IMG/VR virus record: IMGVR_UViG_3300029843_000046
Origin: a virus
Lineage: Duplodnaviria > Heunggongvirae > Uroviricota > Caudoviricetes
Reading direction: 5' to 3' (one strand)
DNA: 15,255 nt
Shown: one piece after another, positions 9,393 to 15,255 of the stretch
Position numbering within the stretch: the first letter of the stretch is position 1
How the letters are laid out: every line of letters begins with the position of its first letter
Position numbers and translations under genes: made by a program
Notes under the pieces: generated by a model
Databases searched by the model: none
What the model saw: the letters and a program-made list of their open reading frames with translations, nothing else
Told to the model about the DNA's origin: nothing

Positions 9393-9438
9393 AAAGAATA
9401 AAAAAATCCCGCAGTGATCGCGGACAGGAACTGCGGGA
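9391..9438 (-). terminator. Minus-strand intrinsic terminator: 8-bp stem (9431-9438 / 9407-9414), then a U-run on the minus strand from 9406 to 9391
   Basis: Inverted repeat TCCCGCAG ... CTGCGGGA with a 16-nt loop. On the minus strand it is followed by TTTTTTTATTCTTTTT; on the + strand no T-run follows, so it is oriented for leftward transcription. Confidence 0.5.
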
Positions 9439-9496
9439 GAGTTACGAAGATTAAGTGTAAGGAATTATTCTTATATCACGACAAAAAAATTAACGC
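9395..9496 (-). ncRNA. Candidate ~100-nt small RNA in the I-J spacer, antisense to the late operon (predicted only)
   Basis: Bounded by the minus-strand promoter (-10 TATAAT at 9508-9503) and the minus-strand terminator (9438-9391). The AU-rich body has no ATG in any frame. Start and end are approximate. Confidence 0.3.
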
Positions 9497-9502
9497 AGAG
9501 AA

Positions 9503-9530
9503 ATTATACGCGCCACAGTCAGTTTGTGAA
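9503..9530 (-). promoter_or_regulatory. Sigma70-like promoter on the minus strand: -35 TTCACA (9530-9525), 16-bp spacer, -10 TATAAT (9508-9503)
   Basis: Read directly from the reverse complement: TTCACA-aactgactgtggcgcg-TATAAT, with an AT-rich upstream region and a second TTCACA copy 8 bp further upstream. Predicted transcription start near 9496. Confidence 0.45.
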
Positions 9531-9602
9531 AATGTGAAGATATTCAGAATTTTTATGCCATTACCGGTTTTAACCAACAGGATTATCGGTGGGCATGAAA
9601 GA

Positions 9603-9638
9603 AAACCCCGGTATCTGCTGATACCGGGGTTTCTCTTT
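9603..9638. terminator. Perfect 12-bp hairpin (AAACCCCGGTAT / ATACCGGGGTTT, loop CTGCTG) with T-rich flanks on both strands; possibly bidirectional
   Basis: Left arm 9603-9614, right arm 9621-9632, read from the sequence. CTCTTT follows on the + strand and TTTTC on the minus strand. Confidence 0.55.
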
Positions 9639-9735
9639 AGCATGGCAGAAATGTGTTTCATGCTTTTCGGGCGAAGGATATCCGACTTCTGTACGGAATG
9701 GCAAGTGGCGGTTAATTTATTCAGGGGAAGGCTGT

Positions 9736-12700: not shown

Positions 12701-13428
12701 AGACCCTGAGTAACATTCTGCTGCAGGCCGATCGCATTGCGATGATTACCCCGGAGAACGGCAACACCACGCCGCTGTTTGTGGCGCAGGGGAATCAGCT
12801 GTTCATGAACGACGTGTTCCTGAAGCGACTGTTTGCGGTGAGCATCACGTCATCCGGCAATCCTCCTACGTTTTCCCTGACGCCGGATGGCAGGCTGGCA
12901 GCCCGCAATGCGGATATCAGTGGAGCCATCACGGCGAATACCGGCACGCTCAATAATGTCACCATTAACGAGAACTGTGTCATCAGAGGGAAACTGTCTG
13001 CAAACCAGATTGAAGGCGATCTCGTTAAAACAGTGGGTAAGGCTTTCCCCCGTGACTCCCGTGCACCGGAGAGGTGGCCATCAGGGACCATTACCGTCAG
13101 GGTTTATGACGATCAGCCGTTTGACCGGCAAATTGTTATTCCGGCGGTGGCATTCAGCGGTGCCAGACATGAGCGGGAGAATAACGATATTTATTCGTCA
13201 TGCCGCCTGATAGTACGGAAAAACGGTGCTGAAATTTATAACCGTACCGCGCTGGATAATACGCTGGTTTACAGTGGTGTTATTGATATGCCTGCTGGTC
13301 GCGGCCACATGACGCTGGAGTTTTCTGTATCAGCATGGTGGGTAAATGGCTGGTATCCCACAGCAAGTATCAGCGATTTGCTGGTTGTTGTGATGAAGAA
13401 AGCCACTGCAGGCATCACGATTAGCTGA
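9736..13428 (+). CDS. J: Central tail fibre / host specificity protein J
   Basis: 1230 aa with AGGGGAAGG ribosome-binding site. N-terminus [22 protein letters not shown] and long blocks ([96 protein letters not shown], the C-terminal block ending [17 protein letters not shown]...[19 protein letters not shown]) match lambda gpJ as I recall it. Confidence 0.95.
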
Positions 13429-13446
13429 ATTTTATAACCCCAATAC

Positions 13447-13472
13447 GGGCGCCAGAAATGGCGCCTTTTTTA
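13447..13472 (+). terminator. Intrinsic terminator downstream of J (7-bp stem GGCGCCA/TGGCGCC, GAAA loop, then TTTTTTATT)
   Basis: Stem 13448-13454 / 13459-13465 with a GAAA tetraloop and a T-run at 13466-13472, read from the sequence. Confidence 0.7.
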
Positions 13473-13495
13473 TTGCAGAAAAGCGAGAGGTAATT

Positions 13496-14095
13496 ATGCG
13501 TAAATTATGTGCTGTTATTCTGTCCGCAGTAGTCTGGCTGGTTGCCGCTGGTACGCCAGCGAGCGCAGCAGAGCATCAGTCCACACTAAGCGCCGGGTAT
13601 CTTCAGACCCACACTGATATGCCAGGCAGCGATAATCTGAACGGGATTAACGTGAAATACCGTTATGAGTTTACGGACGCGCTGGGGCTGATTACGTCCT
13701 TCAGTTATGCCAATGCTGAGGATGAGCAAAAAACGCACTACAGCGATACCCGCTGGCATGAAGATTCCGTGCGTAACCGCTGGTTCAGCGTGATGGCGGG
13801 GCCATCTGTACGCGTGAATGAATGGTTCAGTGCTTATGCGATGGCAGGTGTGGCTTACAGCCGTGTGTCGACGTTCTCCGGGGATTATCTCCGCGTAACT
13901 GACAACAAGGGGAAAACGCACGATGTGCTGACCGGAAGTGATGACGATCGCCACAGCAACACGTCTCTGGCGTGGGGAGCTGGCGTGCAGTTTAACCCGA
14001 CCGAATCCGTGACCATTGATATTGCTTATGAAGGTTCCGGTAGTGGCGACTGGCGAACGGATGCATTTATTGTTGGTATCGGATACCGTTTCTGA
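13496..14095 (+). CDS. lom: Lom outer-membrane protein (Ail/Lom/PagC/OmpX family 8-strand beta-barrel); moron
   Basis: 199 aa with a signal peptide (MRKLCAVILSAVVWLVAAGTPASA then AE) and a C-terminal beta-barrel signature (DIAYEGSGSGDWRTDAFIVGIGYRF) ending in Phe. Conserved blocks (NGINVKYRYE, VMAGP, SAYAMAGVA) match lambda Lom as I recall it. It lies between J and stf, as in lambda. Confidence 0.9.
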   Translation: MRKLCAVILSAVVWLVAAGTPASAAEHQSTLSAGYLQTHTDMPGSDNLNGINVKYRYEFTDALGLITSFSYANAEDEQKTHYSDTRWHEDSVRNRWFSVMAGPSVRVNEWFSAYAMAGVAYSRVSTFSGDYLRVTDNKGKTHDVLTGSDDDRHSNTSLAWGAGVQFNPTESVTIDIAYEGSGSGDWRTDAFIVGIGYRF

Positions 14096-14199
14096 CAACA
14101 GACGCCGATTTATCTTCTGTAAATATTGTTATGATACGCAGGTTCATCCGCCTTATGGGGTGAACTGCGTTTGAGGAAACGTAAAGTTACACTGTCCTG

Positions 14200-14233
14200 A
14201 AGCCCGTGGCGTCACTGCTGCGGGCTTTTTTTA
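14200..14233 (+). terminator. Intrinsic terminator between lom and stf (stem AAGCCCG / CGGGCTT, then T-run)
   Basis: Inverted repeat 14200-14206 / 14221-14227 with a 14-nt loop, followed by a run of T's; read from the sequence. Confidence 0.6.
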
Positions 14234-14246
14234 TTGGTGGAAAAGT

Positions 14247-15255
14247 ATGACAGTAAAAATTTCTGGCGTGCTTAAAGATGGCACAGGAAAACCAGTACAG
14301 AACTGCACCATTGTGCTGAAGGCCAGACGGACCAGCAGCACGGTGGTGGTGAACACGGTGGCCTCTGAAAATCCGGATGAAGCCGGGCGTTACAGCATGG
14401 ATGTTGAGTATGGCCAGTACAGCGTCACCCTGCTGGTTGAAGATTTTCCGCCTTCACATGCCGGGACCATTACCGTCTATGAAGGTTCCAGACCAGGTAC
14501 GCTGAATGATTTTCTCGGCGCCATGACGGAGGATGATGTTCGTCCGGAGGCACTGCGCCGTTTTGAGCTGATGGTGAATGAAGTGGCACGTCATGCCGGA
14601 GCGTCATCACAGAGTGCAGCGGCGGCAAAGAAATCCGAAACGGCAGCAGCCTCATCGAAGAATGCGGCGAAAACCTCAGAAACGAATGCAGCTAACAGCG
14701 CACAGGCGGCAGCGGCCTCGCAGACTGCATCGGCAAACTCCGCGACAGCAGCCAAAAAATCAGAAACCAGCGCGAAAAATAGCGAGACAGCCACAAAGGC
14801 CAGCGAAAAAAACGCAAAATCCAGCCAGACGGCAGCGAAAACCAGTGAGACGAATGCCAAAGACAGTGAAGCCAACGCAAAGGTGAGCGAAACAGCGGCG
14901 GCGAACTCGGCGAAAGCATCGGCAGCAAGCCAGACGGCAGCAAAAGCAAGTGAAGATGCTGCCAGAGAATACGCAAACCAGACAGCAGAGCCGTACAGAT
15001 ATGTTTTACAGCCGCTGCCGGATGTGTGGATACCCTTTAATGATTCGCTGGATATGATTACGGGCTATTCTCCGGGTTATAAAAAAGTGAAGATTGGTGA
15101 TAATGTGGTTCAGGTTGCCAGTGATAAACAGGTTAATTTCAGTCGCGCATCAACGGCAACATATATCAACAAATCTGGCGAACTGAAAACGGCGGAAATT
15201 AATGAGCCGCGATTTGAGTGTGATGGCCTGCTTATTGAGGGACAAAGAACGAACT
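14247..15255 (+). CDS. stf: Side tail fibre protein Stf, 5' portion (truncated by window end)
   Basis: ATG at 14247; the frame is open for 336 codons to the window edge. It is absent from the ORF track because it has no stop in the window. N-terminus MTVKISGVLKDGTGKPVQNCTI...GRYSMDVEYGQYSV...FPPSHAGTITVYE matches lambda Stf (orf-401) as I recall it, followed by an Ala/Ser/Thr/Lys/Glu-rich quasi-repetitive shaft. Confidence 0.85.
   Translation, partial: MTVKISGVLKDGTGKPVQNCTIVLKARRTSSTVVVNTVASENPDEAGRYSMDVEYGQYSVTLLVEDFPPSHAGTITVYEGSRPGTLNDFLGAMTEDDVRPEALRRFELMVNEVARHAGASSQSAAAAKKSETAAASSKNAAKTSETNAANSAQAAAASQTASANSATAAKKSETSAKNSETATKASEKNAKSSQTAAKTSETNAKDSEANAKVSETAAANSAKASAASQTAAKASEDAAREYANQTAEPYRYVLQPLPDVWIPFNDSLDMITGYSPGYKKVKIGDNVVQVASDKQVNFSRASTATYINKSGELKTAEINEPRFECDGLLIEGQRTN

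What the first reader, a model, noticed from the sequence alone, without database searches (positions are those of the whole stretch)
14096..14246. Extended lom-stf spacer with an extended -10-like element, an imperfect stem-loop and a terminator
The spacer is 151 bp, against roughly 64 bp in lambda from memory. It contains TGtTATGAT (extended -10-like; TATGAT at 14130-14135 with TG at 14127-14128) but a weak -35, an imperfect 9-bp stem-loop (14136-14145 / 14161-14169), and a terminator at 14200-14233. Two readings are possible: a long structured lom 3' UTR, or a short independent + strand transcript of about 70-90 nt. Either way the terminator insulates the lom moron from stf.
Basis: seen in the sequence. 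Interest (0 to 1): 0.4.

Follow-up and report, generated by a model that had tools for sequence, protein, structure and literature searches.

The report
Candidate small RNA gene after lom
The unusually long gap between the prophage genes lom and stf holds a compact, highly conserved promoter–hairpin–terminator unit that looks like an undescribed ~92-nt small regulatory RNA gene carried by about 30% of complete E. coli genomes, but nobody has yet shown that it is expressed as its own RNA.

Summary
The lom–stf spacer is 151 bp (14096-14246), against 64 bp in lambda. It contains TGtTATGAT (14127-14135), a stem-loop and a strong intrinsic terminator (14199-14228 plus a T-run).

Comparison adds these points:
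- The same spacer is in 1650 of 5426 complete E. coli genomes, including CFT073, O157 Sakai Sp9 and EPEC E2348/69 PP6, and in E. albertii.
- It is a conservation island. Promoter to terminator is 83-100% identical between lineages whose Lom proteins are only 47% identical.
- In four of six compared lineages the -10 is a perfect TGnTATAAT. Only the free 'n' varies.
- Conserved pairing starts at the predicted +1 (G14142).
- Two deletion derivatives that lost lom keep the element intact.

The best reading is an independent ~92-nt sRNA gene that shares the terminator of the lom cassette: 5' hairpin, invariant central segment, terminator.

It matches no Rfam family. It is not PasB, AgvB/AsxR, HnrS or 24B_1.

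The counter-evidence matters. There is no covariation. The held parts of the EPEC Hfq RIL-seq tables and the EHEC Hfq-CRAC list have no entry for it. The only expression trace is one RNase E-CLASH read. A lom 3'UTR element remains a live rival.

Verdict: moderate interest, a new member of a known kind.

The parts
13496..14095 (+). lom (Ail/Lom family outer-membrane beta-barrel), the upstream gene whose terminator the element shares
   Evidence: ORF of 199 aa. A spacer-identical locus in CFT073 has the corresponding gene annotated as Ail/Lom family.
14096..14108 (+). Variable 13-nt linker between the lom stop codon and the conserved unit
   Evidence: Only 23% of columns are invariant across six lineages. 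This is the least conserved part of the spacer.
14109..14126 (+). Conserved A+T-rich stretch upstream of the -10, with no recognisable -35
   Evidence: The -35..-10 block 14109-14135 (which includes this stretch and the -10) has 74% invariant columns and mean identity 0.92. No -35 hexamer passes the scan. No match to ten regulator consensus sites exceeds shuffles.
14127..14135 (+). Extended -10 promoter element, TGtTATGAT here and TGnTATAAT in other lineages
   Evidence: Seen in the sequence. The orthologous position reads TGGTATAAT, TGCTATAAT or TGTTATAAT in four of six compared lineages, with only 'n' free. One lineage (SCU-106 type) has a 1-nt deletion that spoils it.
14142..14142 (+). Predicted transcription start (G, 7 nt after the -10)
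   Evidence: Inferred from -10 spacing. The G is invariant in all 12 variants. The discriminator 14136-14141 varies and its pairing is poorly kept.
14142..14165 (+). 5' hairpin SL1 (8 bp, 8-nt loop)
   Evidence: Present in the MFE fold and predicted in all six variants folded. 93.9% of cells are paired, and the only changes are wobble-compatible and one-sided.
14166..14183 (+). Possible second hairpin SL2 (7 bp, GAGG loop); uncertain
   Evidence: Present in the MFE of four of six variants. A U-to-C change gives a C·A mismatch in the other two, which fold differently.
14184..14198 (+). Unpaired conserved segment (AAGUUACACUGUCCU) just upstream of the terminator; candidate seed or protein-binding region
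   Evidence: Unpaired in the MFE and centroid folds. The segment 14168-14198 has 97% invariant columns across BLAST-derived lineages. ACUGUCC is invariant in all 12 variants.
14199..14235 (+). Rho-independent terminator (hairpin 14199-14228, T-run 14226-14232); 3' end of both lom mRNA and the candidate sRNA
   Evidence: Terminator scan. All stem pairs are kept in the 12 variants and variation is confined to the loop.
14236..14246 (+). stf ribosome-binding region (GGTGGA, then ATG at 14247)
   Evidence: Seen in the sequence. The stf N-terminal domain gene is annotated in CFT073.

Best explanation
The extra ~87 bp that distinguish this spacer from lambda's are the body of a small RNA gene sitting at the 3' end of the lom cassette.

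Proposed mechanism:
1. A sigma-70 extended -10 promoter (14127-14135, with no useful -35) starts transcription at about G14142.
2. The transcript ends at the terminator that also ends lom (T-run 14226-14232). This gives an RNA of about 92 nt with a 5' hairpin, a conserved central segment that may form a second hairpin, a 15-nt unpaired conserved stretch and a terminator hairpin with a U-tail.
3. In a lysogen this RNA would be made independently of the silent late operon. It would act in trans through the conserved unpaired stretch.
4. The same terminator stops lysogenic transcription from running into stf.
5. During lytic growth Q-modified polymerase reads through.

What is shown: the sequence features, their conservation pattern, their distribution, and one sequencing read proving that the region is present in RNA.

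What is inferred: promoter activity, the 5' end, trans action, and any protein partner or target.
For: 1. Conservation island. Between lineages whose Lom proteins are 47-48% identical and whose stf 5' regions are about 50-75% identical in DNA, the stretch 14120-14240 is 83-100% identical. It peaks at 100% in 14180-14210.
2. Promoter signature. The -10 is a perfect TGnTATAAT in four of six compared lineages. 'n' reads T, G or C while the TG is kept throughout.
3. Edges of conservation. The 13 nt after the lom stop are variable (23% invariant columns). The discriminator varies, and its pairing with 14165-14170 is kept in only 78.6% of cells, against 93.9% for the hairpin that starts at the predicted +1.
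4. Thermodynamics. The 94-nt predicted transcript folds at -38.7 kcal/mol, z = -4.8. SL1 is predicted in all six variants folded.
5. Modularity. Two independent deletion derivatives have lost lom but keep the whole unit. One fuses a J remnant (L006) and the other a capsid gene (L083) to the last 11-14 nt of lom. L006 also has a degraded stf and still carries TGCTATAAT.
6. A distinct insertion. A covariance model of the element finds nothing in lambda-type spacers.
7. Distribution. It occurs at 1970 places in 1650 of 5426 complete E. coli genomes, always at the lom–stf junction, and in E. albertii.
8. Transcription. One RNase E-CLASH hybrid in EHEC Sakai joins MicF to AUGGGGUGAACUGCGU, which is 14156-14171 here.
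9. Precedent. The validated sRNA PasB lies in the I–J spacer of the same prophage type, and a PasB-like sequence lies in the I–J spacer of this window.
Against: - No compensatory base-pair change was found in any helix (0 of 29 pairs). Divergence is too low to test the structure.
- The RNA body without its terminator is only modestly more stable than shuffles (z from -1.0 to -2.65). SL2 is not kept in two of six variants.
- E2348/69 carries the element. Yet the held parts of the EPEC Hfq RIL-seq tables contain no feature for the E2348C_1438/1439 spacer and no coordinate in 1470600-1470899. PasB, 4 kb away, has 37 interactions in the same data. Some of those files were cut when stored.
- The EHEC Hfq-CRAC sRNA list has no entry there. 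Its filter excluded peaks within 100 bp of a coding region, which rules out most of a 151-bp spacer.
- The window's own -10 (TATGAT) is not statistically remarkable alone.
- One lineage (SCU-106 type) has lost the -10 but keeps the body.
- The short lambda-type junction is also well conserved. Part of the island could therefore reflect recombination at this module boundary rather than selection on an RNA.
Confidence: 0.45

Rival explanations
1. The element is a structured lom 3'UTR with no promoter of its own. The conserved segment is transcribed only as the tail of lom mRNA. It either stabilises or regulates that mRNA, or is cut out by RNase E to give a processed 3'UTR-derived sRNA.
For: - It shares lom's terminator and lies immediately after the stop codon.
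- In a read-through transcript the hairpin extends to 13 bp, 14136-14170.
- The one RNA trace comes from an RNase E crosslinking experiment.
- One lineage keeps the body although its -10 is damaged.
- The -35 is weak.
Against: - It does not explain a perfect TGnTATAAT placed 7 nt before the conserved hairpin in four of six compared lineages, with only the unconstrained position varying.
- The lower stem that only a read-through RNA could form is the poorly conserved part.
- The unit is retained in two derivatives that have lost lom and whatever drives it.
- lom itself is almost silent in EPEC (baseMean about 2).
- In this window the J terminator ends only about 24 nt before the lom ATG, leaving no room for a lom promoter.
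Confidence: 0.25
2. There is no separate function. The spacer is a mosaic-junction remnant whose only working part is the terminator. Its conservation reflects recent spread and recombination at the lom/stf module boundary, and the -10-like motif is fortuitous.
For: - 88% of E. coli copies are at least 99% identical, so most of the distribution is recent.
- The short lambda-type junction is similarly uniform over 12,206 places.
- There is no covariation.
- There is no Hfq-interaction record in EPEC.
- No regulator site and no in-window target was found.
- Lambda does without the extra 87 bp.
Against: - Divergent lineages (down to 85.6% identity for the spacer and 47% for Lom) keep the body nearly unchanged, while both flanking genes diverge far more.
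- Substitutions avoid the TG, the -10 hexamer and the unpaired segment, but hit the linker, the 'n', the discriminator and the loops.
- The unit is retained in degraded prophages.
Confidence: 0.2
3. The element is a cis-acting leader of stf. The promoter would drive stf, and the terminator would be a regulated attenuator whose read-through is set by alternative pairing of 14165-14170 with either 14136-14141 or 14178-14183.
For: - It lies directly upstream of stf. The EHEC CLASH annotation labels it the ECs1808 5'UTR.
- Two mutually exclusive pairings of CUGCGU are predicted.
Against: - Neither alternative pairing touches the terminator stem, so no antiterminator is evident.
- stf is a late structural gene served by Q-antiterminated transcription (established lambda biology).
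- The element persists where stf is a pseudogene (L006).
- The short-spacer phages express stf without it.
Confidence: 0.07

Closest known systems
PasB (EPEC E2348/69 prophage PP6; probably equivalent to the ~85-nt EHEC EcOnc22/23/24, by size and prophage location as I read them)
   Same: Both are short RNA units in an intergenic spacer of the tail-gene block of the same lambdoid prophage type (PasB is 83 nt). Both end in an intrinsic terminator with a U-tail. PasB also has a proposed seed in the unpaired stretch just before the terminator. A PasB-like sequence is present in this window's I–J spacer.
   Different: - PasB lies between I and J and is transcribed antisense to the tail genes. This element lies between lom and stf on the sense strand.
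- There is no sequence homology beyond the generic CTGCGGG-T-run of the terminator.
- PasB is validated by Northern blot and is Hfq-dependent, with 37 RIL-seq partners. This element has no such record.
3'-end sRNAs with their own promoter that share the terminator of the upstream mRNA (DapZ and MicL type; from my own knowledge of the class)
   Same: The architecture matches: a promoter at or near the end of a coding gene, an sRNA co-terminal with the mRNA, and a conserved seed upstream of the shared terminator.
   Different: Here the promoter lies after the stop codon, not inside the coding region. Expression, Hfq binding and targets are all unknown.
Anti-sRNAs AgvB/AsxR and HnrS (EcOnc01-03 and EcOnc10-12) of EHEC prophages
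   Same: They are prophage-borne short RNAs at cargo ('moron') positions. They adapt host regulation and are spread by phage acquisition.
   Different: - Those lie downstream of PR' near the lysis genes, or elsewhere among the late genes. They are 51-66 nt and Hfq-bound.
- No Rfam hit to AgvB (RF02702) or AsxR (RF02703) appears in the window.
- HnrS is at Sakai 1779522, not at the lom–stf junction.
24B_1 / EcOnc53 / sRNA108 of Stx2 phages
   Same: It is the only described phage sRNA mapped next to a lom gene, in the lom–vb_24B_43 spacer.
   Different: It sits in a 428-bp spacer of a short-tailed Stx phage, on the strand opposite to lom, with no intrinsic terminator reported. No sequence similarity to this spacer was found (best BLAST E = 0.022 over 15 nt).
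Lambda lom–stf spacer (64 bp)
   Same: It holds the same position and the same kind of terminator (AGCCCG…GGGCTTTTTT). The motif TGTTATGAc directly abuts that terminator.
   Different: It lacks the ~87-bp body. Its -10-like motif ends in C, and any start would fall inside the terminator stem. The covariance model of the long element does not match it. The short form is about six times commoner: 12,206 places against 1,970.

Membership tests
Enterobacterial Hfq-type trans-acting sRNA | Own transcription start (primary 5' end) | tested here: inconclusive
   A conserved extended -10 lies 7 nt upstream of an invariant G. No TSS data could be reached: the supplements of the EHEC dRNA-seq paper are not held.
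Enterobacterial Hfq-type trans-acting sRNA | Rho-independent terminator with a U-tail of at least 6 | tested here: met
   The stem is 14199-14228, followed by 6-8 T in all variants.
Enterobacterial Hfq-type trans-acting sRNA | Physical association with Hfq | tested here: inconclusive
   There is no entry in the held EPEC RIL-seq tables or in the EHEC Hfq-CRAC list. However, some tables were cut when stored, and the CRAC filter excluded peaks within 100 bp of a coding region.
Enterobacterial Hfq-type trans-acting sRNA | Conserved unpaired seed and identified targets | tested here: inconclusive
   A conserved unpaired 15-mer is present. No target better than shuffles was found inside the window. 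A genome-wide target search was not possible with these tools.
PasB family | Sequence homology to PasB and location in the I–J spacer, antisense to the tail genes | tested here: not met
   Local alignment covers only the 15-18 nt terminator tail. The location and strand also differ.
Rfam families, including AgvB (RF02702), AsxR (RF02703), Esr41 and STnc100 | Covariance-model score at or above the gathering threshold | tested here: not met
   There are no matches at gathering thresholds. The best sub-threshold hits have E = 0.77-9.8 and score 12-20 bits against thresholds of 39-59 bits; those in the spacer are driven by the terminator.
24B_1 / EcOnc53 | Sequence homology to the lom–vb_24B_43 spacer of phage 24B | tested here: not met
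   blastn with word size 7 gives a best hit of 15 nt at E = 0.022.
Lambdoid 'moron' cassette (extra gene unit bounded by its own signals and inserted between conserved genes) | Presence/absence polymorphism between conserved neighbours, with a terminator at the downstream edge | tested here: met
   Some Escherichia prophages join the J terminator directly to stf with no lom (L015, L017). Others carry lom with the short spacer, and others lom with the long spacer. In this window both cassette edges end in a hairpin followed by TTTTTTATT.
Lambdoid 'moron' cassette | Own promoter active in the lysogen | not testable with these tools
   No consensus promoter lies upstream of lom in the 24 nt after the J terminator. 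The only promoter-like element in the cassette is the one at 14127-14135.

The most novel reading that the evidence does not exclude
This is an undescribed prophage sRNA family (a 'lom-adjacent sRNA') carried by about 30% of complete E. coli genomes, including UPEC CFT073, ST131, O157:H7 and EPEC E2348/69. It would be made in lysogens from its own extended -10 promoter and would act on host transcripts. The lom cassette would then deliver an RNA regulator as well as an outer-membrane protein. Its absence from Hfq data sets might mean that it uses another chaperone, or that it is expressed only under conditions not yet sampled.
Probability: 0.35. Interest if true: 0.6.

Novelty: new member of a known kind. 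Interest (0 to 1): 0.45.

Why it matters
Prophage-borne sRNAs such as AgvB, AsxR, StxS, HnrS and the Pas RNAs are now known to rewire host regulation in pathogenic E. coli. Published catalogues were built with filters, such as a minimum distance from coding genes, that would miss a gene packed into a 151-bp spacer.

This element is widespread: 1650 of 5426 complete genomes, covering major extraintestinal and intestinal pathogens. It sits in well-studied reference strains for which RNA-seq, dRNA-seq, Term-seq, CRAC, CLASH and RIL-seq data already exist. The claim can therefore be settled quickly by looking at three stated coordinates.

If real, it adds one more regulator to the accessory sRNA repertoire. 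It also gives an example of an sRNA riding on the terminator of a lysogenic-conversion gene.

If not, it is still a clean case of a conserved non-coding island at a phage module boundary.

Tried and rejected
- **Rfam.** Neither the gathering thresholds nor a permissive E-value search gave a credible family. The weak hits in the spacer (trpB motif, Qrr, PyrR and others) align mainly to the terminator.
- **Identity with PasB.** Rejected. PasB maps to the I–J spacer on the other strand, and similarity is limited to the terminator tail.
- **Identity with AgvB/AsxR, HnrS or any EcOnc entry.** Rejected on position and on the Rfam result.
- **Homology with the lom-adjacent 24B_1 region.** None found.
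- **Printed sequence in the literature.** A full-text search for five diagnostic 16-17-mers gave no paper.
- **Covariation.** No compensatory change was seen. There are only 12-16 distinct variants, at least 85% identical. My terminator register was off by one, so that helix's numbers there are meaningless. One search gives the correct ones.
- **Divergent copies.** A covariance model searched over 343 kb of related prophage DNA found only the known copies.
- **Regulator boxes at the promoter** (Fur, LexA, CRP, FNR, PhoP, ArcA, OmpR, IHF, Lrp, Fis). None exceeded shuffles.
- **Targets inside the window.** The best duplex is -31.1 kcal/mol, against -30.0 ± 2.7 for shuffled seeds.
- **Unbiased sampling by the lom 3' end** (GGATACCGNTTCTGA in viral contigs). 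The new loci were all chance matches in unrelated DNA. The only lom contexts were loci already held.
- **Small ORF in the spacer.** Only a 10-codon ATG frame with no Shine-Dalgarno sequence exists, and it is absent where the -10 is TATAAT (by eye).
- **TSS tables for EHEC.** The supplements are not held.

Full report
**Setting.** The window is the tail-gene block of a lambdoid prophage. J ends at 13428, lom is 13496-14095, and the side tail fibre gene stf starts with ATG at 14247. A locus with an identical spacer in E. coli CFT073 has these genes annotated as tail tip protein J, Ail/Lom family outer-membrane protein and prophage tail fibre N-terminal domain protein.

**Observation check.**
- The spacer is 14096-14246, which is 151 bp. 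Lambda's is 19586-19649, which is 64 bp.
- TG (14127-14128), T, and TATGAT (14130-14135) are as described.
- No + strand -35/-10 pair passes the consensus scan, so the -35 is indeed weak.
- The terminator is a 13-pair stem at 14199-14228 with a T-run at 14226-14232.
- The stem-loop is real but larger than stated. In the whole spacer it is 13 bp with one bulge, 14136-14149 / 14158-14170.
- Taken alone, the -10 match is unremarkable: 4 matches with one mismatch or fewer in the window against 5.2 expected.
- The folds are more stable than shuffles. The spacer gives z = -3.2 and the predicted 94-nt RNA gives z = -4.8. Much of that comes from the terminator; the body alone gives z = -1.0 to -2.65.

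**Distribution.**
- The 152-nt query is found at 1970 places in 1650 of 5426 complete E. coli genomes. In every listed hit it lies just upstream of a gene annotated as a tail fibre or phage tail protein. 88% of records are at least 99% identical, and the most divergent is 85.6% identical.
- Carriers include CFT073, ABU 83972, S88, IAI39 and ST131 strains.
- In O157:H7 Sakai it lies in prophage Sp9, between ECs_1807 and ECs_1808.
- In EPEC E2348/69 it lies in prophage PP6, between E2348C_1438 and E2348C_1439.
- It also occurs in E. albertii and in five sequenced Escherichia phages.
- The short lambda-type junction is about six times commoner: 12,206 places in 4313 genomes.
- A third state also exists, with no lom at all. 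There the J terminator is joined straight to stf (L015, L017).
- Both the J terminator and the second terminator in this window end in TTTTTTATT. lom plus the long spacer therefore forms an inserted cassette bracketed by two terminators.

**Conservation pattern.**
I compared the window with five BLAST-derived loci that fall into two further lineages.
- Lom is 47-48% identical in protein for one group and 71-81% for the other.
- The first 450 nt of stf are about 50-75% identical in DNA.
- The stretch 14120-14240 is 83-100% identical, with 100% in 14180-14210.

Within the spacer, conservation is uneven in a telling way.
- The 13 nt after the lom stop are the least conserved, with 23% invariant columns.
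- The promoter block 14109-14135 has 74% invariant columns.
- The central segment 14168-14198 has 97%.

Caveat: the last ~65 nt of lom are also fairly conserved, and the short lambda-type junction is itself uniform. Part of this island may therefore reflect recombination at a module boundary.

**Promoter evidence.**
- The orthologous -10 reads TGGTATAAT, TGCTATAAT or TGTTATAAT in four of six compared lineages, which is a perfect extended -10. The 'n' takes three different bases while the TG is fixed in every lineage.
- The window type, TGTTATGAT, has one mismatch at a weakly conserved hexamer position.
- One lineage (SCU-106 type) has a 1-nt deletion that damages the motif.
- The G seven bases downstream (14142) is invariant.
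- The six bases between the -10 and that G vary. Their potential pairing with 14165-14170 is kept in only 78.6% of cells, against 93.9% for the hairpin that begins at 14142-14143.
- Conserved RNA structure therefore starts where a transcript from this promoter would start. This is what an independent gene predicts and what a plain 3'UTR does not.

**Predicted RNA.**
An RNA from 14142 to about 14232 (about 92 nt) folds as follows.
- SL1 is 8 bp, at 14142-14165.
- A possible SL2 is 7 bp with a GAGG loop, at 14166-14183.
- A 15-nt unpaired stretch, AAGUUACACUGUCCU, lies at 14184-14198.
- The terminator follows.

SL1 is predicted in all six variants folded, and SL2 in only four. Across 12 distinct variants no pair shows a compensatory double change. 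All changes in stems are one-sided and wobble-compatible, or are breaks at the stem top. Terminator variation is confined to the loop. The structure therefore rests on thermodynamics and on tolerance of substitutions, not on covariation.

**Modularity.**
- In L006 (strain AHB30) a J remnant is fused to the last ~13 nt of lom. stf is degraded, with its start codon lost. The element is still complete, with TGCTATAAT.
- In L083 a capsid gene is fused to the last ~14 nt of lom, and the element and stf follow intact.
- In L091 an IS200-type transposase gene sits immediately after the T-run.
- A covariance model built from the 12 variants finds only these copies in 343 kb of related prophage DNA, and nothing in lambda-type spacers.

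**Comparison with lambda.**
Lambda's spacer reads …GTGTTATGAC-AGCCCGCCGG…GGGCTTTTTT. The window reads …TTGTTATGAT-[about 66 nt]-AAGCCCGTGG…GGGCTTTTTTT. The two forms differ as if the RNA body had been inserted into, or deleted from, the junction between a -10-like motif and the terminator. The direction cannot be told.

**What is already known, and what this is not.**
- No Rfam family matches.
- The prophage sRNAs of EPEC (PasA-D) were checked. PasB is 83 nt and lies at NC_011601 1466343-1466261 on the minus strand, between the tail genes I and J of the same prophage PP6. Its similarity to this element is limited to the terminator tail.
- The EHEC anti-sRNAs AgvB and AsxR lie downstream of PR'.
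- HnrS is EcOnc10-12.
- None of the 64 EcOnc entries falls in the Sp9 lom–stf spacer. In the older Sakai coordinates used by these data sets the spacer sits about 140 bases lower, judging from the CLASH hit.
- 24B_1/EcOnc53 is the one described sRNA next to a lom gene, in Stx2 phages. It is unrelated in sequence.
- A review of O-island sRNAs lists none for OI-71, the EDL933 island that carries the same effector genes as Sp9.
- A full-text search for diagnostic 16-17-mers found no paper.

**Expression evidence, for and against.**
- The only positive trace is one RNase E-CLASH hybrid in EHEC Sakai. It joins the 3' part of MicF to AUGGGGUGAACUGCGU, annotated as the ECs1808 5'UTR, which is 14156-14171 here. 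By eye, GGGGUGAAC can form nine pairs with GUUUACCCC of MicF. A single read cannot establish an interaction. It shows only that the spacer is present in RNA.
- Against: in EPEC, lom and stf are nearly silent (baseMean about 2 and 7).
- The held parts of the RIL-seq tables contain no feature or coordinate for this spacer. PasB, from the same prophage, has 37 interactions in those tables.
- The Hfq-CRAC catalogue required peaks to be antisense to, or more than 100 bp from, coding regions. That would exclude most of a 151-bp spacer.
- dRNA-seq and Term-seq tables for Sakai are not held.

**Interpretation.**
- The best-supported reading is an independent small RNA gene that shares the terminator of the lom cassette (confidence about 0.45). 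Its likely mode is trans action through the conserved unpaired stretch, as for other prophage sRNAs. No partner protein or target is known, and the Hfq data so far do not support an abundant Hfq-bound RNA under the two EPEC conditions tested.
- The main rival is a lom 3'UTR element, possibly processed (about 0.25). It fits the position and the RNase E trace. It does not explain the promoter signature, the poorly kept lower stem, or the retention without lom.
- A non-functional junction remnant (about 0.2) fits the recent spread and the lack of covariation. It does not fit the way substitutions avoid the -10 and the central segment.
- A stf leader or attenuator (about 0.07) is unlikely, because no alternative pairing involves the terminator and the element persists where stf is dead.
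It follows from established lambda biology: late genes are read by Q-modified, terminator-resistant polymerase. It was not tested here.

**Verdict.**
The finding is real and more interesting than a long spacer. It is a candidate new member of the prophage-sRNA class, widespread and easy to test with data that already exist. It lacks direct evidence of independent expression and has some negative evidence for Hfq association.

Noticed in passing
window about 9400-9497, minus strand (I–J spacer 9393-9735): There is a PasB-like sRNA gene antisense to the tail genes. The PasB Northern probe target matches 9405-9427 with 3 mismatches (0 expected by chance). The region aligns with E2348/69 PasB through its terminator (CGCGATCACTGCGGGATTTTTTT). 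A conserved TATAAT lies at 9509-9504.
   Followed up: partly
window 9393-9735: The I–J spacer is 343 bp here against 240 bp in E2348/69. The extra DNA includes a strong hairpin (AAACCCCGGTATCAGCAGATACCGGGGTTTTCTTTC, about 9626-9590 on the minus strand) that looks like a terminator in both orientations.
   Followed up: no
window 13429-13495: The J terminator (13447-13466 plus a T-run) ends only about 24 nt before the lom ATG, and no promoter-like site lies between them. lom in this prophage seems to have no promoter of its own downstream of that terminator. In EPEC the orthologous lom is almost silent (baseMean about 2).
   Followed up: partly
L006 (NZ_OZ547086.1), L083 and L091 (IMG/VR contigs): Two independent deletions end within the last 11-14 nt of lom, at short ATACCG/TTACCG matches, and keep the spacer element. 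One contig has an IS200-type transposase gene inserted directly after the element's T-run.
   Followed up: partly
L011 (lambda J02459 19586-19649) and lambda-type loci L013, L014, L016, L028: The short spacer carries TGTTATGAC directly against its terminator, as if it were the long form without the ~87-bp body. Lambda and the other short-type loci differ in the terminator (CCGGAACCGGTGGGC against CCGGTTCAGGCGGGC), and both versions still form a hairpin.
   Followed up: no
L018-L037, L041, L043, L045 (GTDB representative genomes): Many assemblies of unrelated taxa (Pseudomonas, Shewanella, Oceanobacillus, Bradyrhizobium, Vibrio and others) carry lambda-like stf sequence, all with the same 85% match to the query; the one junction I read (L018) has lambda's spacer exactly. 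It is often on short contigs, several labelled with coverage of only about 1-2x. This looks like lambda DNA contamination of the assemblies.
   Followed up: no
window 14156-14171 (Sakai 'ECs1808 5'UTR' in the CLASH table): A single RNase E-CLASH hybrid links MicF to this segment. GGGGUGAAC of the element can form nine pairs with GUUUACCCC of MicF. The segment is otherwise the 3' arm of SL1.
   Followed up: partly
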